From an uncultured Clostridia bacterium (GTDB taxonomy: Bacteria; Bacillota; Clostridia; TANB77; CAG-508), in NCBI GenBank assembly GCA_948934525.1, contig CAQZSK010000001.1:222574-286573 (forward strand): 64,000 nucleotides of DNA, read 5' to 3'. A program made the translations under genes and the position numbers. This document shows positions 29,551 to 56,760 of the stretch, one piece after another. Below the pieces are notes generated by a model, which searched no databases, had not been told where the DNA came from, and saw nothing but the letters and a program-made list of their open reading frames with translations. Each line of letters opens with the position of its first letter. The first letter of the stretch is position 1.

Positions 29551-29578
29551 AGATACACTTAGCGATAAGTGTATTTTT

Positions 29579-35345: not shown

Positions 35346-35461
35346 TTTTTACATACATAAAATCACAAAAATCTGTTGTAAATCAATAAAAAAAAATTTT
35401 TTAGTGTGTTTATTGAAATTCGGTTGTATTCTATGTAAAATGTATTTGTGTATAAGATTAT

Positions 35462-35562
35462 GTTATAGCTTTTTTACTATAACTACCCATAAAGTCAGTC
35501 ACTTTATGGCATAGCTGCTAAAATTTTTAGTTAGCAGTAGTACATCTACATTTTAAATGTAG
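35462..35562. promoter_or_regulatory. four consecutive hairpins in 100 bp (candidate oriT / single-strand promoter or initiation site)
   Basis: GTTATAG/CTATAAC (35462-83), CCATAAAGT/ACTTTATGG (35487-509), CTGCTAA/TTAGCAG (35515-37), CTACAT/ATGTAG (35546-62). They sit in a 416-nt non-coding gap upstream of the leading-region operon. Confidence 0.4.
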
Positions 35563-35761
35563 CATATTATTGGGATTTACGGTAAAATAAATATATAGAT
35601 TATTTGTTGTGCCTTGAAAAATAAGAAAGTAGTATCTTGTTAAGTCCACCCCTAACTTAGCGATATTACTTTCTCTTTTTGTTCCCAAAATCAAAGGAAA
35701 GGAGGATTAATCAAGAATCTTTTACACAAAAATTTGAAAGGAGATTTTGAAATTATGAAAA

Positions 35762-36118
35762 ATGGTTTTGATTTTGAAATGTATGGAGAAATATTCAGAA
35801 ATTGTTTTATCTTTGTTTCAAGATATGCCAATCGGTAATTTACAATTAAGTTTATTTGGAACTGATCCAAAAACAAATCAAACAGCACATTTTGCCGACA
35901 TTACTTTAGACCAAAATAATAAGAAATTAAAAGAAAATGAAATTGTAGTAAATTGCTTATACAGACCAGCTTTAATACCACAATTATTAGAATTAGGTAT
36001 CTTAAAAAAGCAGACTGGCATCTGTGTTGTTAATTTCACAATGTACCCTGTTTATACTGTCGATTTTTCAAAAATCAATTCTAGGCAGTATAGTGAGCAA
36101 GAATTGCTTGTCGCATAG
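35762..36118 (+). CDS. DUF4313-like small protein
   Basis: ...LSLFGTDPKTNQTAHFADITL...ENEIVVNCLYRPALIPQLLELGILKKQTG. Paralogous pattern to 37399-37767. The start is uncertain (ATG 35755 is out of frame; MEKYSE at 35783 is possible). Confidence 0.4.
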   Translation: MVLILKCMEKYSEIVLSLFQDMPIGNLQLSLFGTDPKTNQTAHFADITLDQNNKKLKENEIVVNCLYRPALIPQLLELGILKKQTGICVVNFTMYPVYTVDFSKINSRQYSEQELLVA

Positions 36119-36123
36119 AAAGG

Positions 36124-37296
36124 ATGGTAAAAATGAATACAACTCAAACCTATGTTAAAATGCCTGTAATTGGTAAAGTACAACACGGCGAAAAACTTAT
36201 AACTGATGATGGAAAGCAAAGAACCGTAGACTATGGCTATTTCATTGCAAAAATTCAAGAAGCGAATATGCAACAATACTTAGATAAGTTCAATACTCTA
36301 ATAAAAGGCTCTAAAAGTATCGACATTCAATTTCTTGACGATAACCCTTTGTCGGTTAGGCAAGAAAGGGCTAATCAAAGTGGAACAGTTTGTTATTGTA
36401 TGGAAGGGCAGAGTAAAGGAAAACAAAAGATTAAAAATTTATGGCAAGATATTGAGTGTAAGTCAGATTGTACATACTTACAAAAAGATACATATGGTAA
36501 ATCACCTTGTAAACGTATTGCCTGGTTAAAGTTCCTTATTCCTCAAATAGCATTAGACCGAATTTGGCTAATGAAAATAACCGGTCAAGAGGCAATCGAT
36601 AATTTACAGTCATATATTAGCTTTCAATACTTACAAGGAAACTCATTAAAAAATAATATTTATACTATATTTCTAACTCAAAAGGAACAAATAGATAGTT
36701 TAGGCAAAATTCATAATAATTATGTTTTAGATATCATACAAAAATCAGATTTTATTTCTCACCCTCCAATTTCAAATAATTCTCAAGACCCCCAAAAGCC
36801 TATCATTAATAATGACAAAACACCAACTAATACTACACAAAAAACAAGCAAGCAATCTAACAGTTCTAAAGAAAAACAATCTCAAGGAACTACCACAACT
36901 ACTAAAAGTTCTAGTACACCAGTTAAAAAAGAAGAAAAAAAAGAAACTACATCTCAGAAATCAGCTAGCAAAAAAGAAACTACAAGCAAGCCTAAATCTT
37001 CTAATCAAAAAAAAGCAGAAGAAAGCAACCAAGAAACTACAAGTGAGTATGATAATTGCTATGTGTTATTAAGCACTAGCACTGAAAAGATACAAAACAA
37101 AGAATATTTTGTAGCTGAATTTGTAGATATGCAAGATAAGACTTTAAAAGTTGCAATTCACCCTAACTTTGTAACCGAACTTTCTGAGTGTGAACTTGGA
37201 ACAGTAGTAAAATTAGACATTCAAGAAGTACAACAAACAAACTTTGCAGTTGGATTAGAATTTGTTGAAAAACATACAAAAAAAGTAGCAGCATAA
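36124..37296 (+). CDS. hypothetical protein: Cys-rich N-domain, Ser/Thr/Lys-rich linker, OB-like C-domain
   Basis: 390 aa. N-terminal KMPVIGKVQHGEK...DYGYF, a ~110-aa low-complexity linker and a C-terminal tail ...KKVAA. Confidence 0.5.
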   Translation: MVKMNTTQTYVKMPVIGKVQHGEKLITDDGKQRTVDYGYFIAKIQEANMQQYLDKFNTLIKGSKSIDIQFLDDNPLSVRQERANQSGTVCYCMEGQSKGKQKIKNLWQDIECKSDCTYLQKDTYGKSPCKRIAWLKFLIPQIALDRIWLMKITGQEAIDNLQSYISFQYLQGNSLKNNIYTIFLTQKEQIDSLGKIHNNYVLDIIQKSDFISHPPISNNSQDPQKPIINNDKTPTNTTQKTSKQSNSSKEKQSQGTTTTTKSSSTPVKKEEKKETTSQKSASKKETTSKPKSSNQKKAEESNQETTSEYDNCYVLLSTSTEKIQNKEYFVAEFVDMQDKTLKVAIHPNFVTELSECELGTVVKLDIQEVQQTNFAVGLEFVEKHTKKVAA

Positions 37297-37398
37297 GAAA
37301 ATAAGGTGTCTATGCTACTACATAAAATTAATTATAATATTTATATACTAAATAATTGATAAAGTCAATATTTTTAGAAAATTAGAAAGGAGTTTTTT

Positions 37399-37767
37399 AT
37401 GGAAACATTTACATATAAAAATTATCAAAACTGTTATTTTACAGTTGGAAGCTATGTAGCTGACACAACAGCTATGGCAATATCTATTGTTAATGACGAA
37501 GATGGTCTAATTTCAACTTGTACAATATATGATGAATTTGGTTTTTATGCTTCTAATTCTATAACTGTAAAAAATTATTCAGAAAATTCACATATGACAG
37601 ACTTTTTAAAAAGCTTAGGAGTAGTTATTGACACTATTGATAGACGTCCTTGTAATAGAAAAGTAGGCCATACATTATATAGTGAAAATCCACAAACAAT
37701 TGATACTTGTATTATAAATAAAGATATTCTAAAAAGATATTGTAAGGAGTGGAATTACAATGTTTAG
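37399..37767 (+). CDS. DUF4313-like small protein
   Basis: ...AISIVNDEDGLISTCTIY...ITVKNYSENSHMTDFLKSLGVV parallels 35762-36118. Confidence 0.4.
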   Translation: METFTYKNYQNCYFTVGSYVADTTAMAISIVNDEDGLISTCTIYDEFGFYASNSITVKNYSENSHMTDFLKSLGVVIDTIDRRPCNRKVGHTLYSENPQTIDTCIINKDILKRYCKEWNYNV

Positions 37768-37954
37768 TCAATTTCCTATTGGAAAAAAAGTTTTAGTAAC
37801 TGGTATTGGAAAAAACAAAGGCACAAAATATCTAAACAATATTGGAATTGTAATATGTCGTGATCCTTACTACCACGATTATAATATTCAATTTGAAGAT
37901 ACTTCGGAAGATTGGCTTAATGTAAATTGCCTAAAAAATTATGAAGGAGGATAA
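37760..37954 (+). CDS. hypothetical small protein
   Basis: 64 aa, overlapping both neighbours (operon coupling). Confidence 0.4.
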   Translation: MFSQFPIGKKVLVTGIGKNKGTKYLNNIGIVICRDPYYHDYNIQFEDTSEDWLNVNCLKNYEGG

Positions 37955-39947
37955 TATTATGAAATTAACGTATCTAAAAACAATTGGATTTAGAAAATTC
38001 AAAAATGAATTTGAAACTGAACTTTATGACATTACTAGTATCACTGGAAAAAACAAATCTGGAAAAAGTAATATTTTATATGCCATTGTAAACATTTTAC
38101 TGGGTGCAAATTTATCAGGAGATGAAAAAACTTGTCTTATCAATAATAAATGTGATGCTTCATATGGAGAATTACATTTTACTGATAATAGAGGAATTGA
38201 GCATATTCTAATTCGTGGTAAGGATAAATACACTAGCACCAAGAACTTCATTTCTCTTGATGGTAAACCAGTATCTCAAACAGATTTGATTAGCTTTTAT
38301 AAGGATAAGAAGTTATTTTTGTCTATTATCAATCCCCTATATTTTCTTAATAAGAAGCCTTCTGAACAAAAAGAGTTGGTCGATAAATACTTATCTGATA
38401 TTAAACCTAAAATAATCTTTGACACACTAACGAACCAACAGCAAAACAGCTTAATTGAGAAATATTTTCGTATTTCTACCAAAGAAATCTATCCTAAACT
38501 AACTATTGAAGATTTACAAAATATTTATGATGAGCATAACTTAAAATCAATTACAGGAAAGGATTTTACAGATATAGTAGATAAAGATAAATGGCATACA
38601 ATATGCGACAACATAAAAGAGTTGAGTGGCAGAAAGTATTATGAAATGCTTTCAGTCGAGGAAAGAGAAGATTATATCAACCAAAATATGTTAAATATAT
38701 GTATGTATATTGCGTTTGATAATTTAAGTCAAGAAGAACAAAATATTTTGGAAGTGATACCTTCTAATGTCCCATCATATATAGCGGAATTGAATACTAA
38801 TGTCAAAGAAACAGAAAACATTATCTCTTTATTAAAGGGGAAAATTGACTATGCACAAGATATTGTCAATTTTGAACTGCCTACATACCAAAAATTCGAC
38901 AAAGAAGAAGAACTTTCTCTTGCAGAGCAAGAGTTATTAGTCTTAAACTCGAATAAAAAAATTATTGATAAGGAAAGACAAAAAAAAGTAGTAGAAGAAC
39001 TTGAAAAAGATATTTTAAATAAGGAGACTGAACTTAAAGAGCTAGAAAGTGAAATGAAAAATGGTAAACAAAAATATTTATCAATAAAAAATGGCATAAC
39101 TTGTACTTGTCCTACTTGTAATCAATATATACAGGATGAAAGTAAGGAAACTACAGTATCAAATATGTATAAAGACTTAATGGCTAAATACGATAAAAAG
39201 AACTTATTAGAAACACAAATAAAAGATCAAAAGTTTAATCTAGCTATGGAAAAATGTAAATATCATTCACTAAAAGGTGAATCTACTATTGAAAAATCAA
39301 AGAGAATTATAGTTATAGAAGAAAATATCAAGCAATTAAAACATGAACAGCAAGAAATTGACAGATTTAACAGTGAAATTACTGCAAAGGAAAAAAGTAT
39401 AGAAAGTGCAAAATTAGATATAGAAAAGTTTAACAGCGAAATAAAAGCAAAAACTAAATTCATTGACAGTTTAAATCAAGCTAAAAGAATTGCTCAGAAG
39501 CTTTATATTTCATATATTGAAGAAAAGATGAAGCTAGCACAACAATATTTGAAAGACGTTGATATAAAATTCTACTCTGTTTTAAAAACTACTGGAGAAA
39601 TCAAAGAGGATTTTATTATTACATATAAAAATAAGGCTCTAAGTGACTTATCAAGATCTGAAACTATTGCTACTGCACTAGAATTTGCTAATATGTTTAA
39701 CAAAATAAGTAAGGTCAACTTTCCTCTTTTCATAGATGATTATGAAAGTTGTGTAGATTATAATTTTATTAATCAATATAAAAATAATGATCAATTATTT
39801 TTATCTATGGTACAAAAAGGTTCTCCATTAAAAATTGCTAACTATAATGATAATAAAAAGTGTACTATCATAAAAACAACAATTACAGGATACAGGACAA
39901 TAAAATTATACAATAAGAGTAATAATATACTTCAGCAAGCAGCATAA
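37941..39947 (+). CDS. Rad50/SbcC-like AAA ATPase with coiled coil and CxxC hook
   Basis: N-terminal KLTYLKTIGFRKF plus Walker A GKNKSGKS, a long Lys/Glu coiled coil with central CTCPTCNQ, and a C-terminal FPLFIDDYE (Walker B-like). The likely start is ATG 37959. Confidence 0.7.
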   Translation: MKEDNIMKLTYLKTIGFRKFKNEFETELYDITSITGKNKSGKSNILYAIVNILLGANLSGDEKTCLINNKCDASYGELHFTDNRGIEHILIRGKDKYTSTKNFISLDGKPVSQTDLISFYKDKKLFLSIINPLYFLNKKPSEQKELVDKYLSDIKPKIIFDTLTNQQQNSLIEKYFRISTKEIYPKLTIEDLQNIYDEHNLKSITGKDFTDIVDKDKWHTICDNIKELSGRKYYEMLSVEEREDYINQNMLNICMYIAFDNLSQEEQNILEVIPSNVPSYIAELNTNVKETENIISLLKGKIDYAQDIVNFELPTYQKFDKEEELSLAEQELLVLNSNKKIIDKERQKKVVEELEKDILNKETELKELESEMKNGKQKYLSIKNGITCTCPTCNQYIQDESKETTVSNMYKDLMAKYDKKNLLETQIKDQKFNLAMEKCKYHSLKGESTIEKSKRIIVIEENIKQLKHEQQEIDRFNSEITAKEKSIESAKLDIEKFNSEIKAKTKFIDSLNQAKRIAQKLYISYIEEKMKLAQQYLKDVDIKFYSVLKTTGEIKEDFIITYKNKALSDLSRSETIATALEFANMFNKISKVNFPLFIDDYESCVDYNFINQYKNNDQLFLSMVQKGSPLKIANYNDNKKCTIIKTTITGYRTIKLYNKSNNILQQAA

Positions 39948-40010
39948 AATTAATAATTTTGAAAAAGGCAGAGAAATCTGTCTTTTTTCTTATGCTAGAA
40001 AGGAAATAAA

Positions 40011-40820
40011 ATGATAATATCAAATGATTTCACAAAAGCATATAACACTTTATGTATTAATTATGGAGAATATAATGTATTTTATGATTTTGTAAAAATG
40101 TGTGCCATAACAATTTATAATTCATTTGCCAAAAATCAGGAATTAGAACAAGAATATCTACACATTATCAATTCTTACAGTAAAGAAGAACAAAAGCTAT
40201 TTCCTAAGATGTTTTGCGAATTGATTATGGAATTTGAAAGACAATATAAATTGAATGGGCCAACAGACATATTAGGTCCTATTTATGAAATGGAAAATTT
40301 AAAAAATGCACAACTCGGACAGTTCTTTACCCCATCTCATATTTCTAACTGTATATCAAAAATAACAATAAATGAAATTGAAAATATTGAACAGCAGATT
40401 GAAAAGAATGGCTTTATAACATTATGCGAACCAACTTGTGGTGCTGGTGGTCTGGTTCTCTCATTTGCTAGCACATTACAACAAAATAACATCAATTATC
40501 AAAATTCATTATTAGTAGAAGCTACTGATATATCTGATTTTTGTGCCTATATGACATATATCCAATTTTCTTTATATGGGATACCTGCAACAGTCTATTG
40601 TGGTGACTGTTTAACAAAAAAAATGAGATTTAAAATGGAAACTCCATTATTTTTTCTAAATTATTGGAAATTCAGGAGATTTTATACAAAGGATAAGCAT
40701 GATACATCAGAAAATGGAAAAAAATCAACAGAAATAAAAAACGTTATAGAAAGTGAAAACCAAAACCTAAATTTAAAGGAAGTTATAATAAAGGGTAATT
40801 GTCAAATTACCTTATGGTGA
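40011..40820 (+). CDS. HsdM/N6-adenine methyltransferase-like protein lacking catalytic motif IV
   Basis: LGQFFTPSHIS and motif I LCEPTCGAGG are present, with a motif II/III-like VEATDISDFCAYMTYIQFSLYGIPATVYCGDCLT. No (N/D)PP(Y/F/W) anywhere, and no TRD. Confidence 0.55.
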   Translation: MIISNDFTKAYNTLCINYGEYNVFYDFVKMCAITIYNSFAKNQELEQEYLHIINSYSKEEQKLFPKMFCELIMEFERQYKLNGPTDILGPIYEMENLKNAQLGQFFTPSHISNCISKITINEIENIEQQIEKNGFITLCEPTCGAGGLVLSFASTLQQNNINYQNSLLVEATDISDFCAYMTYIQFSLYGIPATVYCGDCLTKKMRFKMETPLFFLNYWKFRRFYTKDKHDTSENGKKSTEIKNVIESENQNLNLKEVIIKGNCQITLW

Positions 40821-40838
40821 TAGTAAGGAGACATAAAA

Positions 40839-41274
40839 ATGGAAGTATTTAAACAAAAACTATTATTAGTTAAAGAACAATCTTTTGATTATGAGCAAAA
40901 GGTTACAAATTCAACAGAAGTTATTAATTTTATTAGAGATATTTTAAAATTGCAAAATGAATTTCAAGAAGTAGTATATGTATTGTTACTTAATAACCAA
41001 AACCGAATTGTTGGTTTTTCAGAAATTGCAAGACGGTGGTGCAAACTGGTGCAATTTTTCACAAAGTGAATTATTCAAGACAGTGTTATTTAGTAATAGT
41101 TCAAAATTTATTCTCGTACATAACCATCCGTCTGGAAATGCAAAGCCAAGTGAAAGTGATTATGAAATGACTAGAAAAGTTTTACAAGTTGCTAGACTTT
41201 TAGCCTTACAATTTCTTGATCATATTGTAATAGGAGATAATCAACATACATCAATAATGAGTGAAATGCAATAA
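40839..41274 (+). pseudogene. RadC-like JAB/MPN domain protein, frameshifted
   Basis: ORF 40839-41069 (..VVYVLLLNNQNRIVGFSEIA) and ORF 40978-41274 (..DGGANWCNFSQSELF..ILVHNHPSGNAKPSESDYEMT..LDHIVIG) together give a complete RadC. The frame changes near 41030. Confidence 0.7.
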
Positions 41275-41298
41275 ATTTAAAATGAAAGGAAAATACAC

Positions 41299-41715
41299 AT
41301 GAAAATTAAAGTTTTATTAGTAATACCAGGAAAAGAAGTTCAAATCGTTAAGTTGCCATCTGCAAACAAATTTATCAAATCTTTTATAGGAAAAAATCTA
41401 TATAAAATAAGTTTAGATGATGAAACTGCACTTATTGCAAGTCATAGTGCACAACTAGAAGAATTTAACAGAATTTACAAAGGAGATATTATTTTCGGTT
41501 CGTTTTTAGTAATTGGTACTAAAAATAATCATAATATCTCTCTAAAAAAGAAACAAATTCGCAAATTTACTAATATGTTTAAATTAAACAAACATCAGAA
41601 GAAAATTGAGAAATATAAACAAGAATTTCTCGAAGAATTTTATTTTAATCAGAAATTAAATAAACAAAAAAATGCTGTGGCAAATAAAAATCAAATTTTT
41701 AATGTAGCAGCATAA
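41299..41715 (+). CDS. DUF3846-like protein
   Basis: MKIKVLLVIPGKEVQIVKLPS...IIFGSFLVIGTKN resembles DUF3846 of conjugative elements. The tail is ...NVAA. Confidence 0.45.
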   Translation: MKIKVLLVIPGKEVQIVKLPSANKFIKSFIGKNLYKISLDDETALIASHSAQLEEFNRIYKGDIIFGSFLVIGTKNNHNISLKKKQIRKFTNMFKLNKHQKKIEKYKQEFLEEFYFNQKLNKQKNAVANKNQIFNVAA

Positions 41716-41731
41716 GAAAGGATGATTTTAA

Positions 41732-42382: not shown

Positions 42383-42399
42383 GAAAGGAGAAAAAAATT

Positions 42400-42837
42400 A
42401 TGAATAAAATAATTTTATTAGGTAGATTAACAAAAGCACCAGAGATAAGATTTACACAAAGTAATAATAACAAAGTAGCACTATTTACACTTGCGGTAAA
42501 CAGGAAATATGTAAAACAAGGAGAGGAAAGACAAGCTGATTTCTTTAACATTGTGGCTTATTCAAGGTTAGCGGAACTCGCTGAAAAATATTTGCATCAA
42601 GGACTTCAAATTTGCATTAGTGGTAGACTTCAAAATAGAAATTATGAGGACAAAAATGGTGTAACACGATATGTAACAGAAGTAATTGCAGAAGAAGTCT
42701 ACTTTGCTGATAGTCAGAAAAAAGCTGATGAAAGTATTTTGTATTCAAATAATTCGGTAAATACTAATGATTCACAAGTAGAAAATACGAAGGTATCTGA
42801 AGAATTTAACTTAGATTCTGATGATCTCCCATTTTAA
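42400..42837 (+). CDS. ssb: single-stranded DNA-binding protein
   Basis: MNKIILLGRLTKAPEIRFT OB fold, and an acidic C-terminal tip DSDDLPF. Confidence 0.9.
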   Translation: MNKIILLGRLTKAPEIRFTQSNNNKVALFTLAVNRKYVKQGEERQADFFNIVAYSRLAELAEKYLHQGLQICISGRLQNRNYEDKNGVTRYVTEVIAEEVYFADSQKKADESILYSNNSVNTNDSQVENTKVSEEFNLDSDDLPF

Positions 42838-42893
42838 ATGACAGAGAAATTATATCAAAACAGCCAAATAAAAAGAAAAGGAGAATTGAAAAA

Positions 42894-43043
42894 ATGATAT
42901 TTGTAGTTACGTTAGAAGATATAATAGAATTATGTCTAATCACAGCTTTTGCTGTAGGAAGCATAATTTATATTATATATGAGCTTGCGAAAGTCAAAGT
43001 AGAAAATAGAAAAAAACAAAATAGGAAGGAAGTGAAATCATAA
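42894..43043 (+). CDS. unannotated 49-aa single-TM peptide
   Basis: Hand translation gives MIFVVTLEDIIELCLITAFAVGSIIYIIYELAKVKVENRKKQNRKEVKS*. AAAGGAGA SD ~9 nt upstream. Confidence 0.35.
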   Translation: MIFVVTLEDIIELCLITAFAVGSIIYIIYELAKVKVENRKKQNRKEVKS

Positions 43044-43160
43044 TTATCCTATAATAGGTTATATCAGCTATGAAGAATATGATATGTAAAATATATGACT
43101 TTGACACATTAAATGTGTAGTAGAGTATGTTGCCATAAATAGATAAATTTATGGCTAATT

Positions 43161-43871
43161 ATGAAATATATAGCAAGTGTGAGCTTTGGAAAAGACAGTT
43201 TAGCAATGTTATTGATACTAATAGAAAAAGGCATGCCCCTTGATGAGGTGATTTTTTATAATACTGGTATGGAATTTCAAGCTATCTATGATGTTTGCAA
43301 AAAAGTAAGAAAAATACTAAAGAAAAACAACATAATTTATACTGAATTAAAACCATCCACCACTTTTTTATATAAAATGTTGAAAAAAAACGTACAAAAA
43401 AGAGATGGTGCAACACAATGCGGTTACGGAATTTGCGGTGGCAAGTGCCGTTGGGGAACAAATGATAAGAATATTGCAATAAGCAAATATTTGAAACAGA
43501 AATATGGAAATGAATATTACGAATATATCGGAATTGCAGCAGATGAGCAGAAAAGAATTGACCAGAGACGACCTCCAACTAAACTACTACCTTTAGTAGA
43601 ATGGAATATGACTGAGAAAGACTGCTTAGAATACTGTTATAAACATCAATTCTATTGGGAAGAAAATGGTATCAGATTGTACGAAGTATTAGATAGAGTG
43701 AGCTGTTGGTGCTGCTCTAACAAAAATAAGAAAGAACTAGACAATATGTTTTATTACTTACCTAATTACTATTTGAAAATTATAGGATTGCTAAAAGAAA
43801 TAAAAAGGAATAATAAGAGAGATAGCATCGTAGTAAAGAAAGTAGAAGAATTTTATTTAAAAATGCTTTAA
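43161..43871 (+). CDS. PAPS reductase/PP-loop ATPase family protein
   Basis: PP-loop variant SVSFGKDS near the N-terminus and a C-terminal Cys cluster (CWCC). Confidence 0.65.
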   Translation: MKYIASVSFGKDSLAMLLILIEKGMPLDEVIFYNTGMEFQAIYDVCKKVRKILKKNNIIYTELKPSTTFLYKMLKKNVQKRDGATQCGYGICGGKCRWGTNDKNIAISKYLKQKYGNEYYEYIGIAADEQKRIDQRRPPTKLLPLVEWNMTEKDCLEYCYKHQFYWEENGIRLYEVLDRVSCWCCSNKNKKELDNMFYYLPNYYLKIIGLLKEIKRNNKRDSIVVKKVEEFYLKML

Positions 43872-43920
43872 CTATGTGAAAGCTATTTTTGAACTAAAAA
43901 ATATATAGGAGGAATAAAAA

Positions 43921-44196
43921 ATGCAAACAAACATTATAAGTGTAAAATATGAAGATAATTTTGAGAAAAAAACATTTAGTGGTAAGGCATATAGTTATTA
44001 CACTGCTATACCTGTTAAGGTTGGCGATTTAGTAATTGCTCCTACCGCTTTTGTTGAAAAAATTGCAAGAGTATCAACTATTGATATTCCTGAAGAACAA
44101 GTAGAAAGTATCAAACCATATTTAAAAACTGTTGAGCGAGAAATTGATAAGGAAAAATACTTACAGACCGGTGAAATAGTAGAAAAGGCGGCTTAA
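43921..44196 (+). CDS. hypothetical small protein
   Basis: 91 aa with a good SD (AGGAGG). The tail is ...VEKAA. Confidence 0.45.
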   Translation: MQTNIISVKYEDNFEKKTFSGKAYSYYTAIPVKVGDLVIAPTAFVEKIARVSTIDIPEEQVESIKPYLKTVEREIDKEKYLQTGEIVEKAA

Positions 44197-44197
44197 T

Positions 44198-44603
44198 ATG
44201 AGTGGAACTGATGTTGTAAGTATTTTAATTCCTCAGTTATTAAACTTAGGTTTTATTGTACATCGCTATAATTCATATTCTACCAGTTCAATTTATTTAA
44301 AATTGGATTACCGGTGTGGCCTGTGGCATTCGTATTGCAGACCATCCAGGCAAGAAAAAATATAATTATAGATTCAATATCATAAAGGATTATATTGGAA
44401 ATAAGGTCATCATCAAAGATGGCCTTGTTTGTCGCTTTTATGGCTTTAATGAACTAGATGATGTACTTACTGCAATTCAAAAAGAAAAGCAAGACAAAAT
44501 CGGAAAATATGGTTTACAAAATTATCAAAAATATATGGAAAAAGATTCTAAAAATGAATTATATAAGAGATTTAAAGAAGTGAGAGGAGAAACAAATAAA
44601 TGA
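44198..44603 (+). pseudogene. hypothetical protein interrupted by a 1-nt insertion
   Basis: ATG 44198 opens MSGTDVVSILIPQLLNLGFIVHRYNSYSTSSIYLKLDY. Removing one C at 44311/44312 joins it to GVACGIRIADHPGKKKYNYRF... (ORF 44316-44603). Confidence 0.45.
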
Positions 44604-45019
44604 ACGGTTTTGAACGATTAAAAAACATGTTAGATGAATGGAAAAAGGATCATGGCGAAGACGAAGCATTTAACGAAACTGTTAATTATCTATTAAATAG
44701 ACCTGATTTAGAGACAAAATTTCTTAATGACGAAAAGTCTCTAGATGGCTTACATGATTTTATACATGACAAAGGTCAAAAACATTGTCTTAATGGTTGG
44801 TGCTATATTACAAATGAAGTAATTTTTGCCTGGGCTGTAATGTACTTCTCATTGCCAAATGCTCTATTAAAAATTACCTCTCCAAAGAAAAAAGAGGATA
44901 ATAAGGTAGAAAAAACAAACAAACAAACTACTAATGTCATTTCTATTGAACAAGCAAAGAAAAAAATTGAAGAAAAGAAAAATGACCAAATTTCTTTGTT
45001 TGGAGGTGCAACAGTATGA
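44600..45019 (+). CDS. PcfK-like protein
   Basis: 139 aa. FNETVNYLLNRPDLETKF...NGWCYITNEVIFAWAVMYF fits my recollection of PF14058. Followed by a PcfJ-like gene, as in pCF10. Confidence 0.5.
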   Translation: MNGFERLKNMLDEWKKDHGEDEAFNETVNYLLNRPDLETKFLNDEKSLDGLHDFIHDKGQKHCLNGWCYITNEVIFAWAVMYFSLPNALLKITSPKKKEDNKVEKTNKQTTNVISIEQAKKKIEEKKNDQISLFGGATV

Positions 45020-46587
45020 AACAGGAAAAAATTGATGAACTAATGCTTAAAATAGATAAAAAGTGCAAACTTCCAAAATATTGGGAACAATTTATTAAAG
45101 AAAATTTTAAAAGTCATCATCTTATCATAAAAGATAAGGAAAAGAAAAAACTTTATTGCTCTAATTGCAATAGATATTTTGCTGATAAAACAGTAAAAGT
45201 TCGTGATTATGTGGAATGTCCTCATTGTCATAAGATGTCATGTGTGTATGGAATAAATTATTATAGAAAATCCTTTGAACAATCTGTCGTATTAGTTCAA
45301 AGAGTAGACAAACAAATTGTTATAAGAATATTTGAAATATATTCTTATTTTAAAGAAGGAAAAAAGAGAATAAAAAGAAGTTGTATAGAGTACGCAAGGA
45401 TCCTTCCTGGTATTGGTAGATTTATTGGTAATAATGTTTGGATCAATATGTTTGGAGTTTTAAATGTATATCATGGCTATAAAAAACTTAGTTGGACTGC
45501 ATATAAAGGACATAAATTTTTGACAGACCATCCTACATATCCATACGACAAAAAAAGACTTGTAAAAGGTACAATTATGGAATATGCACCTATTAGCGAA
45601 TTTATGGATAGATTTTCATACTATCGTTACAACTATTTGGATGTATTAGAACTTGCTGCCTATGGAAGTTTTGAATTGCTATGGAATATGAAATTATATA
45701 ACTTGTGTTTTTATTCTAAAGCATTAAATAAAAAAGGTAGCTTTTTAAAAAGATTTGGCGTACCTAAGAGTTTTTTAAAATTTATGCAAGATAATGATAT
45801 TTCTTATAAGGAACTAATGTTATTGCAGTTATTTCAAAAAGATGATAAAAAACTATTTCAAAAATACCGCTATACTAATATCAATTATTTGAGATTCTTT
45901 ATTAAAAATAATGTACTAGACGATTTCTTAAACTCTGGTATAGAGCTTAATTATACCAATATGCACCTTATAAAAGATATTAGTAAATATGTATCTTTAA
46001 AGAAATTGATGCAATATAAAAAGGGCTTGCAAAACCTAAATATCTATAAGGACTATTTAGAGATGGCGAAAAAGCTTAGTTATAATTACAAGTCAAAAAA
46101 AGATTTATTTCCACGCAATTTAATTGCTAGACACGATAAAATGCAAACTAAAATAAAAATCGAAGAAGATATGAATACACAATTTAAAGCATATCTAAGA
46201 TATTTAGAACTATCGAAATACACTTATTCAGATGATAAGTACATTATTTTCCCTGCTCCTAGTATTGATAGTATGAAAGATGAAGGAAAACAACAAGGTA
46301 ATTGTGTCGGTTATATGTATCTTGAGCCTTATATCAACGGAGAAACAGAAATATTTTTTGCCAGAAAATTGAAAGATGTTACAAAGTCATTTATAACACT
46401 TGAATACAAAAATAACCGTGTTGTTCAGAAAGAATTGCCACATTATGATAGAAATTTTACAGCTGAGCAAAATGCTTTTATAGACAACTGGATAAACTTT
46501 AGGCAATTTATAGATAAAAAAGAAATATATAAAATTAGAGATAACTTAAAAGTTGTGCAATATGATTTGAAGAAAATAGTCGCATAG
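45016..46587 (+). CDS. PcfJ-like protein
   Basis: 523 aa with an N-terminal CxxC...CPHC ribbon. The C-terminal MKDEGKQQGNCVGYMYLEPYINGETEIFFARK resembles the PcfJ core. Confidence 0.55.
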   Translation: MKQEKIDELMLKIDKKCKLPKYWEQFIKENFKSHHLIIKDKEKKKLYCSNCNRYFADKTVKVRDYVECPHCHKMSCVYGINYYRKSFEQSVVLVQRVDKQIVIRIFEIYSYFKEGKKRIKRSCIEYARILPGIGRFIGNNVWINMFGVLNVYHGYKKLSWTAYKGHKFLTDHPTYPYDKKRLVKGTIMEYAPISEFMDRFSYYRYNYLDVLELAAYGSFELLWNMKLYNLCFYSKALNKKGSFLKRFGVPKSFLKFMQDNDISYKELMLLQLFQKDDKKLFQKYRYTNINYLRFFIKNNVLDDFLNSGIELNYTNMHLIKDISKYVSLKKLMQYKKGLQNLNIYKDYLEMAKKLSYNYKSKKDLFPRNLIARHDKMQTKIKIEEDMNTQFKAYLRYLELSKYTYSDDKYIIFPAPSIDSMKDEGKQQGNCVGYMYLEPYINGETEIFFARKLKDVTKSFITLEYKNNRVVQKELPHYDRNFTAEQNAFIDNWINFRQFIDKKEIYKIRDNLKVVQYDLKKIVA

Positions 46588-46596
46588 GAGGAATAA

Positions 46597-47475
46597 TTGA
46601 TGAAACAAAAATCTGATACTAACAAGAAAAATAAAACAAAGGAAATGTATGACAAACTCGTTAAAGGGGTTACTCATATCATTAGCTCTGGAAAATACAC
46701 AGAATTTTTAGCATTTTCTAAATCTTTTCACCATTATAGTTTTAATAATCTTGTACTTATTTATTCTCAAATGCCAAATGCTACTAGGGTGGCAGGATTT
46801 AAAACTTGGGAAAAACTAGGTAGAAAACTAAAAAAAGGTGAAAAAGGGATACAAATTTTTTTCCCTTTGAAAAGAACTTATATTAAAAATAAAATCGCTG
46901 GTCAGGCTAGCTTAATTGATGATACAAAAGTTGAAGATACTCAGGAAATTATTGAATATCTTACATATAGACCCACTTATGTCTTTGATATTTCACAAAC
47001 CGTAGGAAAGCCTATTCCTGAAGCTTCATTATGTGAAAAACTCAACAGTAATAATATGAATGAATTTTTTGACTTTTTATTATCTTTCTCACCATATCCT
47101 ATTTTAGAGCAAAGTCTACGTGGCTCTTTATATGGATATTGGAATCCAAAAGAAAAACATATTGCACTTAATCAAAAATTATCTATTGACGATAAAGTTT
47201 CTACTCTACTACATGAATTGACACACGCCTTATATGATGATTTCGATTATCAAAATGATAAAAAATTGTCAGAAACCTTTGTTGAATCTGTCGCTTTTAT
47301 AGTGGCTGATTTTTTTGGTTTAGATACTTCGAGATGTAGTTTTGGCTATATTGCTGCATATGCAAGTGATGTTAAAGTTATTTTAGAGTTAGGCGATAAA
47401 ATTCAAAAAACTGCAAATCAATTTATTAAACAAATTAAAGAATATCAAGAACAAGGTTTAAAAATTATTGCTTAA
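46597..47475 (+). CDS. ArdC-like antirestriction protein (ssDNA-binding N-domain plus HExxH metalloprotease)
   Basis: YSFNNLVLIYSQMPNATRVAGFKTWEKLGRKLKKGEKGIQIFFP (DUF1738/ArdC-N) and LLHELTHALYDD. Confidence 0.75.
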   Translation: MMKQKSDTNKKNKTKEMYDKLVKGVTHIISSGKYTEFLAFSKSFHHYSFNNLVLIYSQMPNATRVAGFKTWEKLGRKLKKGEKGIQIFFPLKRTYIKNKIAGQASLIDDTKVEDTQEIIEYLTYRPTYVFDISQTVGKPIPEASLCEKLNSNNMNEFFDFLLSFSPYPILEQSLRGSLYGYWNPKEKHIALNQKLSIDDKVSTLLHELTHALYDDFDYQNDKKLSETFVESVAFIVADFFGLDTSRCSFGYIAAYASDVKVILELGDKIQKTANQFIKQIKEYQEQGLKIIA

Positions 47476-47546
47476 AATGAATTTAAAAAACAGATACAAC
47501 ATATTAGAACTATATTTGAAATTTAGAAAATAGGAGGTAAATAAAA

Positions 47547-47762
47547 ATGAGAAGAAAAAATAGAAAGGTCTCTGAATTAGAAAATATATTACGTAAGTAC
47601 TTTAACTTTCAAGTCAGTACTCCTGAAAATTATATCATTCAAAGAGATAAGGCATATGACACAATGATAAATTTTATCTGCGATTTATCTGAAACTGGTA
47701 TTGATGGAATTGACGAAGGAGAGCTCATAGATGAGCTAAATAAAATTATCGGAAGAGATTAG
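47547..47762 (+). CDS. hypothetical small acidic protein
   Basis: 71-aa ORF with an AGGAGG SD. Confidence 0.4.
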   Translation: MRRKNRKVSELENILRKYFNFQVSTPENYIIQRDKAYDTMINFICDLSETGIDGIDEGELIDELNKIIGRD

Positions 47763-47798
47763 TTTTTCAAGAATGTAAAATAAGAAAGGAGATTTTTA

Positions 47799-48822
47799 AT
47801 GAATTCATTAGACTTTCAAGAGGTATCTAAACATATTAGCATTGCTAATGTCGCTTACCATTTGTGCCTAGAAATTACTGAAACAAGGGCTGATGAAATA
47901 AAGGCTATTTGTCCTTTTTGTCGGCTACAATAAGAATTCCAAAATTGCTACTTTAAGTCTTAATGTTAGCAATAACAAATATTGTTGCAGCAGATGTGGA
48001 GCAGGTGGATATTCTATTGGCCTTTATGCTAAAGTTAAAAGTATTGATACGAAAAAAGCATATCGCGAACTATTAGATAGAGAATGTTTTTCTATAAATA
48101 GTTCACCTATCACTATTAGTCCAATAAATGAGCTTGCGGACATTGAAACAAGAGATAAAGTTTATAGGGCATTTCTGAGTATGTTAAAATTAGAGAAACA
48201 ACATCAAAACTATCTACGAAGGTTAGGATTTTTAGATTCTACAATAAATGAACAATTGTATCGCTCACTACCCACTTCTAAAACAACCAGATATATAAAA
48301 AGGCGATTAATTGCTAACAAGTTAAAAAATATGTATGATTTATTAGGTATTCCGGGTTTTTATCAAGAGGAAGATTGGATATGGACTTTTGCTAGTGGTG
48401 AAGGCTTCTTCGTTCCACTATTTGACGAAAATAACAAAATTCAAGCATTATCTATTCATTTGGATAAAGAATTTAATGGTACAAGCGATTTATGGTTTTC
48501 AAGTGCTGGAAAAATCAATGGAACAGGTACTAAAAACTGGATTAGTAAAAATAATATCAGAGAAGATACTAAAACTGTCGTAATAACTGACAGCTTATTA
48601 TTAGGTAATTTTATGAAAGCAACACTTAATATTCCTGTTATTAGCTTTTCTAGCATTGCTAATTCATATCAAATTTTAAAGTCAATTGATGGAACAAATA
48701 TACAGAATATTATTTTTACCATAAGACCTGGAGCAAATCAGAATTTAGATTATATTATTAGACGAATTTTTAGAGATTTGTTACCTTTGCGGATACAATT
48801 TAGAAGTAAAATCAGTAAATAA
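47799..48822 (+). pseudogene. CHC2 zinc-finger primase-like protein, frameshifted
   Basis: ATG 47799 ...AICPFC then a premature TAA (47931). Deleting C 47922 gives CPFCGYNKNSKIATLSLNVSNNKYCCSRCGAGGYSIGLYAK, continuous with ORF 48181-48822. Confidence 0.55.
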
Positions 48823-48933
48823 TTTTCAAGATGTTTTAAAAGATGATTTCTTGACTTTTTATGCAGTAAAAAAGACTGCATAGCACTATAAAATTATAAT
48901 AGACTAGCCTTGTATAAAGGTTAGTCTATTTTT

Positions 48934-56758: not shown

Positions 56759-56760
56759 TT

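What the first reader, a model, noticed from the sequence alone, without database searches (positions are those of the whole stretch)
35346..48822. 13-kb co-directional block with the gene content of a conjugative leading region: reservoir of candidate anti-defence genes
All ORFs from 35.7 to 48.8 kb are on one strand and tightly coupled. They include ssb, an ArdC-like antirestriction protein, PcfK- and PcfJ-like proteins, RadC, DUF3846-like, a PP-loop/PAPS-reductase-like protein, a primase-like protein, an HsdM-like fragment and about eight small proteins I cannot place. Established knowledge: leading regions of conjugative elements enter the recipient first and are enriched in anti-restriction, anti-CRISPR and SOS-inhibition genes. 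As far as I recall, PcfK-like domains have been linked to AcrIIA9-type Cas9 inhibitors. Inference: the unassigned ORFs (35762-36118, 36124-37296, 37399-37954, 41299-41715, 43921-44196, 47547-47762) are good candidates for new anti-defence functions.
Basis: partly seen in the sequence, partly recalled or inferred. Interest (0 to 1): 0.7.

Follow-up and report, generated by a model that had tools for sequence, protein, structure and literature searches.

The report
Conjugative-element operon with built-in degradation tags
The block is one conserved operon of a decaying conjugative element from uncultured gut Clostridia; its gene content resembles a plasmid leading region, but its striking features are a new structured RNA leader and an Ala-Ala tail, like the cell's own "destroy me" tag, on eight unrelated proteins.

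Summary
Positions 35.4-48.9 kb form one co-directional, tightly packed operon encoding SSB, ArdC-like, PcfK, PcfJ, RadC, DUF3846, PAPS-reductase-like, primase-like and HsdM-like proteins. It lies in a tRNA-Arg-integrated element with type IV secretion genes, not in a prophage.

"Leading region" could not be tested, because no relaxase or oriT was found. Variable cargo sits in four fixed slots.

This copy is decaying. Gene 1, RadC, a 130-aa gene, the primase, the coupling protein and VirB4 are frameshifted, and independent assemblies show the same lesions.

Two features are new.
1. A sigma-70-like promoter is followed by a ~310-nt leader, 71-78% identical in 24 diverged loci. Its hairpins are supported by covariation, it contains an intrinsic terminator, and it has no Rfam match.
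2. Eight core protein families end in [Ala/Val]-Ala-COOH: 220 of 400 block homologues, against 0 of 311 ORFs outside the block. The tail also occurs on 21 of 55 distant stand-alone ArdC-like proteins.

My best reading is an establishment and DNA-processing operon whose expression is pulsed, by attenuation in the leader and by ClpXP-type removal of the tagged proteins. That mechanism is inferred, not shown.

The parts
35413..35441 (+). Sigma-70-like promoter TTGAAA-17-TAAAAT at the head of the operon
   Evidence: The consensus scan scores it 10/12. Both hexamers are conserved in 24 diverged loci.
35447..35754 (+). Structured 5' leader of about 310 nt. Hairpins: P1 35462-35483, P2 35487-35509, P3 35514-35538, P4 35546-35562, P5 35582-35612. 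Invariant long-range pairing: 35447-35456 with 35719-35728.
   Evidence: It is 71-78% identical at nucleotide level in 24 loci. On the alignment, 94% of cells are paired and 21 pairs show double changes, with 0 of 500 shuffles reaching the observed values and slid controls at 33-51%. G-U pairs number 68 against 13 A-C. There is one copy per locus, always upstream of the block. Rfam has no match.
35624..35682 (+). Intrinsic-terminator-like hairpin plus U tract inside the leader. The invariant purine tract AAAGGAAAGGAGGA follows at about 35695-35708 and could pair with the 3' arm instead.
   Evidence: This is helix 7, 91% paired with 3 pairs showing double changes. RNAalifold proposed the alternative pairing with the purine tract.
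35755..36118 (+). Gene 1, a core family of about 120 aa with no Pfam domain and a ...[IVL]AA tail. It is frameshifted in the window by an extra C near 35829; ORF 35762-36118 is the downstream frame.
   Evidence: See; L001 carries the same lesion. Of 120 homologues, 118 end in [AV]A. The AlphaFold model has pLDDT 77 with a disordered tail and no PDB match.
36124..37296 (+). Gp3-like (RDF-like) N-terminal domain, then a low-complexity linker and a C-terminal domain. Core gene; tail KKVAA.
   Evidence: Pfam PF18897, E 7.5e-8. Of 27 homologues, 26 end in [AV]A.
37399..37767 (+). Accessory ORF of 122 aa (phrog_33530, function unknown)
   Evidence: It is present in only 6 loci, at varying positions.
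37760..37954 (+). Core ORF of 64 aa, no tail
   Evidence: Found in 24 loci.
37941..39947 (+). SbcC/Rad50/RecF-like ATPase with a central CxxC. Core gene; tail QQAA.
   Evidence: It matches phrog_77 (SbcC-like) at 5.9e-15 and TIGR00611 RecF at 4.8e-9. Of 29 homologues, 28 end in [AV]A.
40011..40820 (+). Short HsdM-like protein. It keeps motif X and the SAM-binding motif I, but motif IV is degenerate (TP[LFM][YF]F instead of NPPF). Semi-core gene, in slot 1.
   Evidence: Pfam N6_Mtase matches profile positions 3-119 of 311. phrog_5696 matches over its full length, E 3.6e-66. The gene occurs as 26 ORFs.
40839..41274 (+). RadC (JAB domain), split into two frames. Accessory gene, pseudogene.
   Evidence: L005 shows the same split.
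41299..41715 (+). DUF3846 protein. Core gene; tail NVAA.
   Evidence: Pfam E 3.4e-10. Of 28 homologues, 27 end in [AV]A.
41732..42382 (+). Ribosomal-protein-S6-like protein with a C-terminal extension, directly upstream of ssb
   Evidence: PF01250, 37.3 bits against a cut-off of 27. Relatives carry 93-95-aa versions. It occurs as 37 ORFs.
42400..42837 (+). SSB ending in the usual acidic tip ...DDLPF
   Evidence: Pfam E 3.5e-33. Of 30 homologues, 28 end in LPF.
42894..43871 (+). Cargo slot after ssb. In the window it holds a 49-aa ORF and a PAPS-reductase/PP-loop protein (43161-43871).
   Evidence: phrog_424 matches at 1.3e-33. Neither ORF has a homologue in the other 32 loci.
43921..44196 (+). 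Core protein of 91 aa with no Pfam domain; tail EKAA
   Evidence: Of 31 homologues, 29 end in [AV]A. No PDB sequence match.
44198..44603 (+). Core gene of about 130 aa, frameshifted in the window (44198-44365 and 44316-44603)
   Evidence: It is a single ORF in 26 loci. The frames are compared.
44600..45019 (+). PcfK-like protein (AcrIIA9 family) with a C-terminal QISLFGG motif
   Evidence: Pfam 31.1 bits against a cut-off of 27. Of 34 homologues, 29 have Q.[SN]LF in the last 16 residues.
45016..46587 (+). PcfJ-like protein with an N-terminal zinc ribbon. Core gene; tail KIVA.
   Evidence: Pfam E 5.3e-23. Nearly all of 120 homologues end in [AVI]A. The AlphaFold model has pLDDT 88 with a disordered tail and no PDB match.
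46597..47475 (+). ArdC-like protein: ssDNA-binding N-terminal domain plus an HExxH metallopeptidase; tail KIIA
   Evidence: Of 33 homologues, 25 end in [AV]A. Of 55 distant stand-alone representatives, 21 do.
47547..47762 (+). Cargo slot after ArdC. In the window it holds a unique 71-aa ORF.
   Evidence: The ORF has no homologue in the other loci. This slot carries 47 accessory ORFs across loci.
47799..48822 (+). DnaG-type primase-like gene, a pseudogene with at least two frameshifts that has lost its ...NVA tail
   Evidence: Of 30 homologues, 19 end in [AV]A.
48898..48930 (+). Terminator-like hairpin closing the operon
   Evidence: A 14-bp stem followed by a T run.
29474..31054 (.). Left end of the element: tRNA-Arg(ACG), + strand, and a 491-aa tyrosine integrase, - strand
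   Evidence: L028 has the same pairing.
58124..59884 (-). VirD4-type coupling protein, a pseudogene with several frameshifts
   Evidence: Intact homologues of 575-590 aa are 63-76% identical.

Best explanation
Positions 35413-48930 form one operon of an integrative conjugative element. The element sits at tRNA-Arg and carries a Gram-positive-type type IV secretion module.

**Proposed role.** The operon is the element's DNA-processing and establishment module. Its core genes are gene 1, a Gp3-like protein, an SbcC/Rad50-like ATPase, DUF3846, an S6-like protein, SSB, a 91-aa protein, a 130-aa protein, PcfK, PcfJ, ArdC and a primase. I infer that these handle and protect element DNA in single-stranded or newly replicated form. 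Four fixed slots carry exchangeable cargo, and that is where candidate anti-defence genes sit.

**Proposed control.** Expression is pulsed at two levels.
1. Transcription starts at a sigma-70-like promoter and must read through a terminator inside a conserved, structured 310-nt leader. This is attenuation or antitermination, and the effector is unknown.
2. Eight core proteins end in a disordered tail, x-[Ala/Val]-Ala-COOH. This is the same determinant as the ssrA tag, Ala tails and RseA(1-108). ClpXP, or another AAA+ protease, would therefore remove them once transcription stops.

**What is shown.** Operon anatomy, conservation, leader covariation, tail conservation and specificity, and the decay of this copy.

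**What is inferred.** The module's function, the attenuation mechanism, and proteolysis through the tails.
For: **Operon and element.**
- Co-directional, tightly packed genes, with a promoter and a terminator at the ends.
- Integrase next to tRNA-Arg.
- Coupling protein, PrgI, VirB4, sortase and adhesins downstream. Intact versions exist in relatives.
- The coupling protein and PcfJ families share at least eight contigs, judged by matching contig lengths.
- Clostridial and enterococcal plasmids place ATPase-PcfK-PcfJ, or PcfK-PcfJ-SSB, beside transfer genes.

**Core versus cargo.** The gene order is syntenic in 32 loci. Accessory ORFs occur only after the ATPase, DUF3846, SSB and ArdC, and fall into 27 clusters. 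They include a NADAR-like protein (below Pfam's cut-off) and a DUF4942 methyltransferase.

**Leader.** It is 71-78% identical at nucleotide level. On the alignment, 94% of cells are paired and 21 pairs show double changes, with 0 of 500 shuffles reaching the observed values; slid controls pair at 33-51%. G-U pairs number 68 against 13 A-C, which points to the sense strand. It occurs once per locus.

**Tails.**
- 220 of 400 block homologues end in [AV]A, against 3 of 119 other in-block ORFs and 0 of 311 outside ORFs. Fisher p is 1e-83.
- Codons and stop codons vary, so the constraint is on the protein.
- The tail is conserved in 118 of 120 gene-1 homologues and in nearly all PcfJ homologues, where the preceding residues vary.
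- It is present in 21 of 55 distant stand-alone ArdC-like proteins but in only 1 of 88 long fusions.
- AlphaFold pLDDT is below 50 at both modelled C-termini.
- No protein of the secretion module has the tail.

**Established knowledge.** In Bacillus, the ssrA tag ...ALAA and RqcH Ala tails both target proteins to ClpXP (PMC8767453).
Against: - No experiment shows that these proteins are unstable.
- Position -3 is often K, Q, N or E rather than the Leu of ssrA. ClpX affinity could therefore be weak.
- The closest cultured example checked lacks the tail: the Thermoanaerobacterium plasmid ArdC ends KLVS. Enterococcal PcfJ also lacks it. The tail is thus limited to certain clades.
- The host's tmRNA tag could not be read.
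- The long-range pairing in the leader and the alternative to the terminator are invariant, so covariation cannot confirm them. They could equally be DNA operators.
- The functions of gene 1, the 91-aa and 130-aa proteins, DUF3846 and PcfJ remain unknown.
- No relaxase was found, so the module's place in the transfer cycle is unknown.
Confidence: 0.5

Rival explanations
1. The block is the leading region of the conjugative element: it enters the recipient first, is expressed early, and its uncharacterised ORFs are mainly anti-defence genes. This overlaps with my best explanation. It differs in requiring adjacency to oriT and in assigning the unknown genes an anti-defence role.
For: - The gene content matches: SSB, ArdC, PcfK/AcrIIA9 family, a methyltransferase-like protein and a primase.
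- ArdC is enriched in leading regions, and a PcfJ-like family is listed in the same table.
- The genes are co-directional.
- Cargo slots hold a NADAR-like protein, an orphan methyltransferase and a PAPS reductase.
- In an E. faecalis plasmid, PcfK-PcfJ-SSB lies 1.5 kb from a gene annotated as replication-relaxation family; MOB-suite types that plasmid's relaxase as MOBC.
Against: - No oriT or relaxase was located.
- The block lies next to the integrase and regulatory end of the element. It is convergent with the secretion module, and its orientation relative to the integrase differs between loci.
- The promoter is an ordinary double-strand type, followed by a terminator.
- Most of the unknown ORFs are strictly conserved core genes. 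That pattern does not fit fast-turnover anti-defence cargo.
Confidence: 0.3
2. The [Ala/Val]-Ala C-terminus is a translocation signal, not a degron. The coupling protein would recognise the eight proteins and deliver them with the DNA into the recipient. Primases and other leading-region proteins are delivered this way in some Gram-negative systems.
For: - Type IV secretion signals are usually C-terminal and disordered. The tails here are disordered.
- The tagged set includes a primase and ArdC. From my own knowledge, proteins of these classes are reported or proposed to be transferred.
- The tail is specific to this module.
Against: - From my own knowledge, known type IV signals are Arg-rich, or glutamate-rich and hydrophobic, and span about 20 residues. 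None is a two-residue Ala-Ala.
- The residues before the tail are not conserved.
- The tail persists in the window's copy although its coupling protein and VirB4 are pseudogenes.
- Ala-Ala-COOH is the established ClpX determinant.
Confidence: 0.1
3. The conserved 310-nt region acts as DNA rather than as an RNA leader. It would be a single-strand origin or single-strand promoter, or the oriT itself, folding in the transferred strand.
For: - As single-stranded DNA it folds with a z-score of -5.4.
- It contains several conserved hairpins.
- It sits at the head of a module that encodes a primase and SSB.
- Its conservation exceeds that of the neighbouring coding sequence.
Against: - A conserved -35/-10 pair lies immediately upstream, outside the hairpins.
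- The last hairpin has a U tract and is followed by a Shine-Dalgarno sequence and the start codon, which is the anatomy of a leader.
- G-U pairs are frequent on the sense strand. G-T pairs in DNA could give the same asymmetry.
- No relaxase gene lies next to it.
Confidence: 0.12
4. The block is the replication module of a prophage or phage satellite.
For: Several families also occur in phages: PcfJ phrog_8470, the SbcC-like ATPase phrog_77, the methyltransferase-like phrog_5696 and the PAPS reductase phrog_424. A Gp3-like domain is present.
Against: - The window and 30 or more relatives contain no capsid, tail, terminase or lysis genes.
- IMG/VR holds no relative.
- Megablast found no phage match.
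- Secretion genes lie on the same element.
Confidence: 0.03

Closest known systems
Leading regions of conjugative plasmids, such as F/ColIb ssb-psiB-ardA (Samuel et al. 2024, PMC11541004)
   Same: Both are co-directional blocks with SSB, an anti-restriction gene (ArdC), methyltransferase-like genes and small unknown ORFs. ArdC is an enriched family in that study.
   Different: Here the position relative to oriT is unknown. The promoter is an ordinary sigma-70 type followed by an attenuator leader, not an Frpo-type single-strand promoter. Most genes are a conserved core rather than a variable island. Eight products carry Ala-Ala tails.
The pcfK-pcfJ-ssb segment of enterococcal pCF10-type plasmids, and ATPase-AcrIIA9-family-PcfJ upstream of the secretion genes on Clostridium sporogenes/botulinum plasmids (pNPD7)
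   Same: The same families appear in the same order, next to PrgI/VirB4-type transfer genes. The C-terminal Qx[SN]LF motif of PcfK is shared.
   Different: Identity is only 26-37%. The plasmid versions lack the leader. Enterococcal PcfJ lacks the tail. pNPD7 has only ...RIA and ...ISA.
Natural ClpXP substrates with ssrA-like C-termini: the ssrA tag ...ALAA and RqcH Ala tails (PMC8767453); E. coli RecN ...LAA and RseA(1-108) ...VAA (from my own knowledge)
   Same: All have a terminal Ala preceded by Ala or Val on an unstructured C-terminus. RecN is likewise an SMC-like ATPase that is needed only briefly.
   Different: Here the tag is encoded on eight unrelated proteins of a single mobile-element operon. 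Degradation has not been tested.
Attenuation leaders of Gram-positive conjugation and replication operons, such as pCF10 prgQ/IRS1 and pIP501/pT181 antisense-driven attenuation (from my own knowledge)
   Same: All have a long leader with a terminator between the promoter and the first gene of a transfer-related operon.
   Different: No sequence or Rfam similarity was found. No countertranscript promoter was identified. The hairpin architecture P1-P5 is new.
The ICEBs1-type early operon: divergent from int and the regulators, encoding excision, replication and DNA-processing genes (from my own knowledge)
   Same: The position is the same: next to the integrase and regulatory end, as one long operon, with an RDF-like second gene and ssDNA-handling proteins.
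   Different: The protein families are different. No relaxase or helicase processivity factor was recognised. The secretion genes are convergent rather than downstream in the same operon.

Membership tests
Conjugative leading region | Lies immediately next to oriT, on the side that enters the recipient first | tested here: inconclusive
   No relaxase or oriT was recognised in 29.5-64 kb, in the 10 kb beyond, or in relatives.
Conjugative leading region | Genes co-directional on one strand | tested here: met
   Which strand is transferred is unknown.
Conjugative leading region | Single-strand (Frpo/ssi-type) promoter | tested here: not met
   The -35 and -10 hexamers are linear, lie upstream of the hairpins, and are followed by a terminator hairpin. 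An ssDNA role for the hairpins is not excluded.
Conjugative leading region | Enriched in anti-defence, SSB and methyltransferase genes | tested here: met
   SSB, ArdC, PcfK/AcrIIA9 family and an HsdM-like protein are present. Relatives carry a NADAR-like protein and a DUF4942 methyltransferase.
Integrative conjugative element | Integrase at a tRNA attachment site | tested here: met
   tRNA-Arg at 29474-29550 with the integrase at 29579-31054. L028 has the same pairing. The right-hand repeat is not within the window.
Integrative conjugative element | Functional type IV secretion system with coupling protein | tested here: not met
   In this copy the coupling protein and VirB4 are fragmented. 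They are intact in relatives.
Integrative conjugative element | Relaxase and oriT | tested here: inconclusive
   None was recognised. MOB-suite also finds no relaxase on the related clostridial plasmid pNPD7.
ArdC anti-restriction family | ArdC-N ssDNA-binding domain plus a C-terminal HExxH metallopeptidase | tested here: met
   PF08401, E 1.3e-11. Peptidase_M78/DUF6782 matches cover the LLHELTHA motif. Activity cannot be tested here.
AcrIIA9 / PcfK | PcfK domain (PF14058) | tested here: met
   31.1 bits against a cut-off of 27. NCBI names plasmid homologues as AcrIIA9 family.
AcrIIA9 / PcfK | Inhibits Cas9 | not testable with these tools
   The conserved C-terminal QLSLF-type motif suggests binding to the sliding clamp instead of, or as well as, Cas9 inhibition.
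ClpXP C-terminal degron (ssrA-like) | Free C-terminus ending in Ala-Ala or Val-Ala | tested here: met
   Eight families show it: 220 of 400 homologues against 0 of 311 outside ORFs.
ClpXP C-terminal degron (ssrA-like) | Tail accessible and unstructured | tested here: met
   pLDDT is below 50 for PcfJ residues 520-523 and gene-1 residues 114-120. These are predictions only.
ClpXP C-terminal degron (ssrA-like) | ClpX-dependent degradation | not testable with these tools
   This needs half-life measurements.
Prophage replication module | Structural, packaging or lysis genes on the same element | tested here: not met
   
Known Rfam RNA family | Match at the gathering score | tested here: not met
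   The best sub-threshold match has E 0.22 and is to an unrelated plastid 3' UTR family.

The most novel reading that the evidence does not exclude
A family of conjugative elements in gut Clostridia runs its establishment and anti-restriction operon as a self-limiting pulse. A previously undescribed 310-nt structured leader gates transcription by attenuation. Eight unrelated core proteins, including ArdC, PcfJ and a primase, each carry a genetically encoded ssrA-like Ala-Ala degron, so host ClpXP erases the whole module once transcription stops. The same tail on about 40% of distant stand-alone ArdC-like proteins would make programmed instability a general, overlooked property of these proteins in mobile elements.
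Probability: 0.4. Interest if true: 0.75.

Novelty: new variant of a known kind. Interest (0 to 1): 0.62.

Why it matters
Leading-region and establishment genes are currently mined as lists of anti-defence candidates. This analysis adds three points.

1. **Core and cargo can be separated.** In this element family most "unknown" genes are a fixed, co-evolving core. Cargo is confined to four slots, which tells anyone screening for anti-defence genes where to look.

2. **The tails suggest a testable rule.** A shared Ala-Ala C-terminus on eight unrelated proteins implies that the element borrows the host's ssrA/ClpXP quality-control route to make its entry functions transient. That could explain how costly or toxic establishment proteins are tolerated. 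It also predicts that clpX or clpP status in the recipient changes the outcome of transfer.

3. **The leader is a new RNA motif.** It is covariation-supported, controls a transfer-related operon, and its effector is unknown.

In addition, the perfect clamp-binding-type motif on PcfK/AcrIIA9-family proteins offers a cellular partner for a family known only as a Cas9 inhibitor.

Tried and rejected
- **Similar DNA.** Megablast of the block against the plasmid and phage collections found nothing.
- **Phage origin.** Rejected. IMG/VR holds no relative and there are no structural genes.
- **Right-hand attachment site.** No repeat of the tRNA-Arg 3' end of 13 nt or more lies within the window. The element therefore runs past 64 kb, and one search confirms this.
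- **Relaxase and oriT.** The search failed. Pfam and NCBIfam gave nothing for any ORF of 110 aa or more between 29.5 and 64 kb. The conserved 303-aa protein upstream of the coupling protein has no PDB or NCBIfam match.
- **Walking beyond the window.** The 306-aa protein returned only 1.7-kb contigs.
- **Function from structure.** The PcfJ model (pLDDT 88) and the gene-1 model (pLDDT 77) have no PDB fold match; the best E-values are 0.28 and 0.05, with TM-scores of at most 0.31. PDB sequence searches with the 91-aa and PcfJ profiles found nothing. Pfam at E 0.1 found nothing for gene 1 or for the 64-aa, 91-aa and 130-aa proteins.
- **DNA-level cause of the tails.** I considered a shared RBS or coupling sequence. 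I rejected it because the codons, the stop codons and the downstream contexts all vary.
- **Sequencing error as the cause of the frameshifts.** Rejected, because independent assemblies show the same ORF structure.
- **Cultured example of a tailed ArdC.** The top plasmid hit, from Thermoanaerobacterium, lacks the tail.
- **Literature.** Searches for ssrA-like or degron tags on conjugative-element proteins found no prior description in the library.

Full report

Yes. Between 35.7 and 48.8 kb every ORF of 100 aa or more is on the + strand. Minus-strand ORFs there are at most 98 aa and lie inside + strand ORFs. GC and AT skew are positive only across 36-48 kb. Most gene junctions are overlaps or gaps under 120 nt.

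Pfam confirms the following:
- SSB (E 3.5e-33)
- ArdC-N plus an HExxH peptidase
- PcfK and PcfJ
- RadC
- DUF3846
- PAPS_reduct
- an N6_Mtase match limited to the first 119 of 311 profile positions

Intact homologues of the last gene carry the DnaG CHC2 zinc ribbon.

- 41299-41715 is the DUF3846 protein.
- 36124-37296 has a Gp3-like (RDF-like) domain.
- 37399-37954 is two ORFs.
- 37941-39947 is an SbcC/Rad50/RecF-like ATPase.
- 41732-42382 is a ribosomal-protein-S6-like protein sitting directly before ssb.

**2. What element is it?**

The left flank (1-29 kb) is chromosomal: ABC transporter, LytR, and M18 and M14 peptidases.

The element starts at tRNA-Arg(ACG), 29474-29550, with a 491-aa tyrosine integrase beside it. 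It then carries a sigma-region-4 protein and HTH regulators, followed by the block.

Downstream, on the minus strand, lie DUF5697, an S1-like protein, an ECF sigma factor, a VirD4-type coupling protein and a SpaA adhesin. Other assemblies of the same element show that this module continues past 64 kb. It includes SpoVG, a TED adhesin, a sortase, VirB4 (AAA_10), PrgI and an HTH_36 protein.

No repeat of the tRNA end lies within the window. No relatives exist in IMG/VR, and no phage structural genes are present.

Intact relatives show the module order VirB4, M23 peptidase, sortase, TED/SpaA adhesin, SpoVG, a 303-aa protein, coupling protein, S1-like, DUF5697, integrase. The coupling-protein and PcfJ families share at least eight contigs, judged by matching contig lengths.

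**3. This copy is decaying.**

The coupling protein is broken into at least four frames and its Walker A motif is disrupted. Intact homologues of 575-590 aa are 63-76% identical. VirB4 is a string of small ORFs.

Inside the block, four genes are damaged:
- gene 1, by an extra C near 35829
- RadC
- the 130-aa gene
- the primase, with at least two frameshifts

Independent assemblies show the same lesions or the same split ORF calls. They are therefore not sequencing errors.

**4. Is it a leading region?**

This cannot be decided. A leading region is defined by oriT. I found no relaxase or oriT in the window, in the next 10 kb, or around relatives. MOB-suite also types the related clostridial plasmid pNPD7 as having no relaxase.

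The gene content is compatible with a leading region. ArdC is an enriched leading-region family and a PcfJ-like family is listed in the same table (PMC11541004 supplement). AcrIIA9 does carry the PcfK domain (PMC6739104).

The block's orientation relative to the integrase differs between loci: it is divergent from the integrase in the window and co-directional with it in L028 and L029. In the window, L014, L016 and L042 the DUF5697 and S1-like genes of the secretion module lie downstream on the opposite strand, convergent with the block.

**5. Core versus cargo.**

Thirty-two genome loci, all from uncultured gut Clostridia genomes assembled from metagenomes, carry the same gene order at 30-83% identity. 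So do many metagenome contigs.

Accessory ORFs occur only in four slots: after the ATPase, after DUF3846, after SSB and after ArdC. Across loci there are 167 such ORFs in 27 clusters.
- Two of these are nearly core: the S6-like protein (37 ORFs) and the short HsdM-like protein (26 ORFs). The HsdM-like protein has a degenerate catalytic motif IV.
- The truly variable slots are those after SSB and after ArdC. They hold mostly unknown families, plus a NADAR-like protein (below Pfam's cut-off) and a DUF4942 methyltransferase.
- In the window the variable cargo is the 49-aa ORF, the PAPS-reductase-like protein, the 71-aa ORF, the 122-aa ORF and RadC.

**6. A conserved structured leader.**

The non-coding stretch before gene 1 is 71-78% identical in nucleotides across 24 loci. 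That compares with 50-71% amino-acid identity for the adjacent protein.

It contains a conserved TTGAAA-17-TAAAAT promoter at 35413-35441, followed by about 310 nt with five hairpins and a terminator-like hairpin with a U tract at 35624-35682.

Evidence for the structure, measured on the named structure:
- 94% of cells pair.
- 21 pairs show changes on both sides.
- 0 of 500 shuffles reach the observed values.
- Structures slid by 1-3 columns pair at only 33-51%.

G-U pairs outnumber A-C pairs 68 to 13, so the sense strand is the one that folds. The element occurs once per locus, always upstream of the block. This holds even where gene 1 is missing, and it is absent from the secretion-module loci and from the plasmids. 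Rfam has no match.

The pyrimidine-rich 3' arm of the terminator could pair instead with the invariant AAAGGAAAGGAGGA tract that follows it. An invariant 5'-end/3'-end pairing encloses the whole leader. Neither can be tested by covariation, because both are invariant.

My reading is transcription attenuation or antitermination with an unknown effector. A role as single-stranded DNA remains possible.

**7. Ala-Ala tails.**

Seven window ORFs end in [V/A/I]-A. Across non-redundant loci the counts of ORFs ending in [AV]A are (Fisher p 1e-83):
- 220 of 400 homologues of block genes
- 3 of 119 other in-block ORFs
- 0 of 311 outside ORFs

The tail belongs to eight families:

| Family | Homologues ending in [AV]A |
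|---|---|
| Gene 1 | 24/24 |
| Gp3-like | 26/27 |
| SbcC-like ATPase | 28/29 |
| DUF3846 | 27/28 |
| 91-aa protein | 29/31 |
| PcfJ | 32/34 |
| ArdC | 25/33 |
| Primase | 19/30 |

SSB ends in its usual acidic tip, LPF. The S6-like, methyltransferase-like, 64-aa and 130-aa proteins lack the tail. So do the cargo ORFs and every protein of the secretion module.

Several points argue that the constraint acts on the protein:
- Ala and Val codons and the stop codons vary, and the downstream nucleotide contexts differ.
- In 120 PcfJ homologues the tail is kept while the preceding residues vary.
- 118 of 120 gene-1 homologues have it.
- AlphaFold models of PcfJ and gene 1 are confident except for the last residues.

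Among distant representatives of ArdC-like proteins (35-47% identity), 21 of 55 stand-alone proteins end in [AV]A, against 1 of 88 long fusion proteins. The trait therefore extends beyond this element family. It is not universal.

In Firmicutes the ssrA tag (...ALAA) and RqcH Ala tails both send proteins to ClpXP (PMC8767453). From my own knowledge, RecN (...LAA) and RseA(1-108) (...VAA) are natural ClpXP substrates of the same kind.

I infer that these eight proteins are built to be short-lived. I found no earlier description of this in the literature library.

**8. Other points.**
- PcfK homologues end in Q[IL]SLFGG, in 29 of 34 cases. This matches the QL[SD]LF consensus for binding the sliding clamp (the consensus is from my own knowledge). 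The clostridial and enterococcal plasmid homologues end QVSLFDF and QMNLFELV.
- PcfJ and gene 1 have no detectable structural relatives in the PDB.

**9. Verdict.**

The best-supported model is a conserved establishment and DNA-processing operon, pulsed by an attenuator leader and by degron-tagged products, present here as a decaying copy. The operon anatomy, the leader covariation and the tail statistics are shown. Function, attenuation and proteolysis are inferred.

Noticed in passing
window 35755-47475 (seven ORF ends); L007-L047: Eight core protein families of the block end in x-[Ala/Val]-Ala-COOH. This holds for 220 of 400 homologues, against 0 of 311 ORFs outside the block. The ending resembles the ssrA/ClpXP degron.
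   Followed up: yes
window 35413-35754: A conserved promoter is followed by a 310-nt leader whose hairpins are supported by covariation and which contains an internal terminator. It is 71-78% identical in 24 loci and has no Rfam match.
   Followed up: yes
window 58124-59884 (-); L048/L050 beyond 64 kb; window 35829, 40839-41274, 44198-44603, 47799-48822: The coupling protein, VirB4, gene 1, RadC, the 130-aa gene and the primase are all frameshifted, and independent assemblies show the same lesions or split ORFs. The element copy is decaying.
   Followed up: yes
window 44600-45019; L052 12941-13519; L053 9601-10377: PcfK/AcrIIA9-family proteins carry a C-terminal Q[ILVM][SN]LF motif that matches the QL[SD]LF consensus for binding the beta sliding clamp. 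This hints at a replication-linked role for the family.
   Followed up: partly
window 41732-42382, next to ssb at 42400-42837: A paralogue of ribosomal protein S6 (PF01250, 37 bits) sits directly upstream of ssb, mirroring the chromosomal rpsF-ssb arrangement. It is kept in nearly all related elements, as a 93-95-aa or a ~215-aa form.
   Followed up: partly
window 40011-40820: A short HsdM-like protein keeps motif X and the SAM-binding motif I but has TP[LFM][YF]F in place of the catalytic NPPF. It matches phage family phrog_5696 over its full length. It may be an inactive decoy or a SAM binder.
   Followed up: partly
window 61952-63742 (-); L054 4390-7965; L055 4960-7935: The SpaA/TED adhesins of the transfer module end in LP[KR]TGR followed directly by the stop codon. 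They have a sortase motif but no hydrophobic anchor or charged tail after it. This is conserved in three elements.
   Followed up: no
L017 13313-13774; L037 7543-9150; L008 8015-8407; L016 8905-9582: Cargo-slot genes in relatives include a NADAR-like protein related to the DarT1-associated antitoxin (below Pfam's cut-off), a DUF4942/Dam-like methyltransferase, a DUF7448 protein and a DUF2786+DUF7168 protein.
   Followed up: partly
L036 19261-20031; L042 17561-18298; L044 21422-; L046 17655-18356: Spo0A-like response regulators (Response_reg plus Spo0A_C) recur within a few kb of the block in at least nine related loci. It is unclear whether they belong to the element or mark a common insertion neighbourhood.
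   Followed up: no
L004 7197-11084: In one metagenome variant of the same element, the primase remnant is replaced by an HTH gene and two reverse-transcriptase (RVT_1) ORFs.
   Followed up: no
window 9314-10237 (-): The chromosomal flank encodes a PvuRts1I-like, SRA-domain restriction endonuclease, a type that depends on DNA modification.
   Followed up: no
window 3444-3587 (-): Rfam RT-14 RNA matches at 71.7 bits (gathering score 48.1) in the chromosomal flank.
   Followed up: no
window 55601-57285 (-); L042 14938-16651: An ECF-type sigma factor with an adjacent protein of about 385 aa, a possible anti-sigma factor, is part of the element. In a relative it lies in inverted orientation on the other side of DUF5697.
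   Followed up: no
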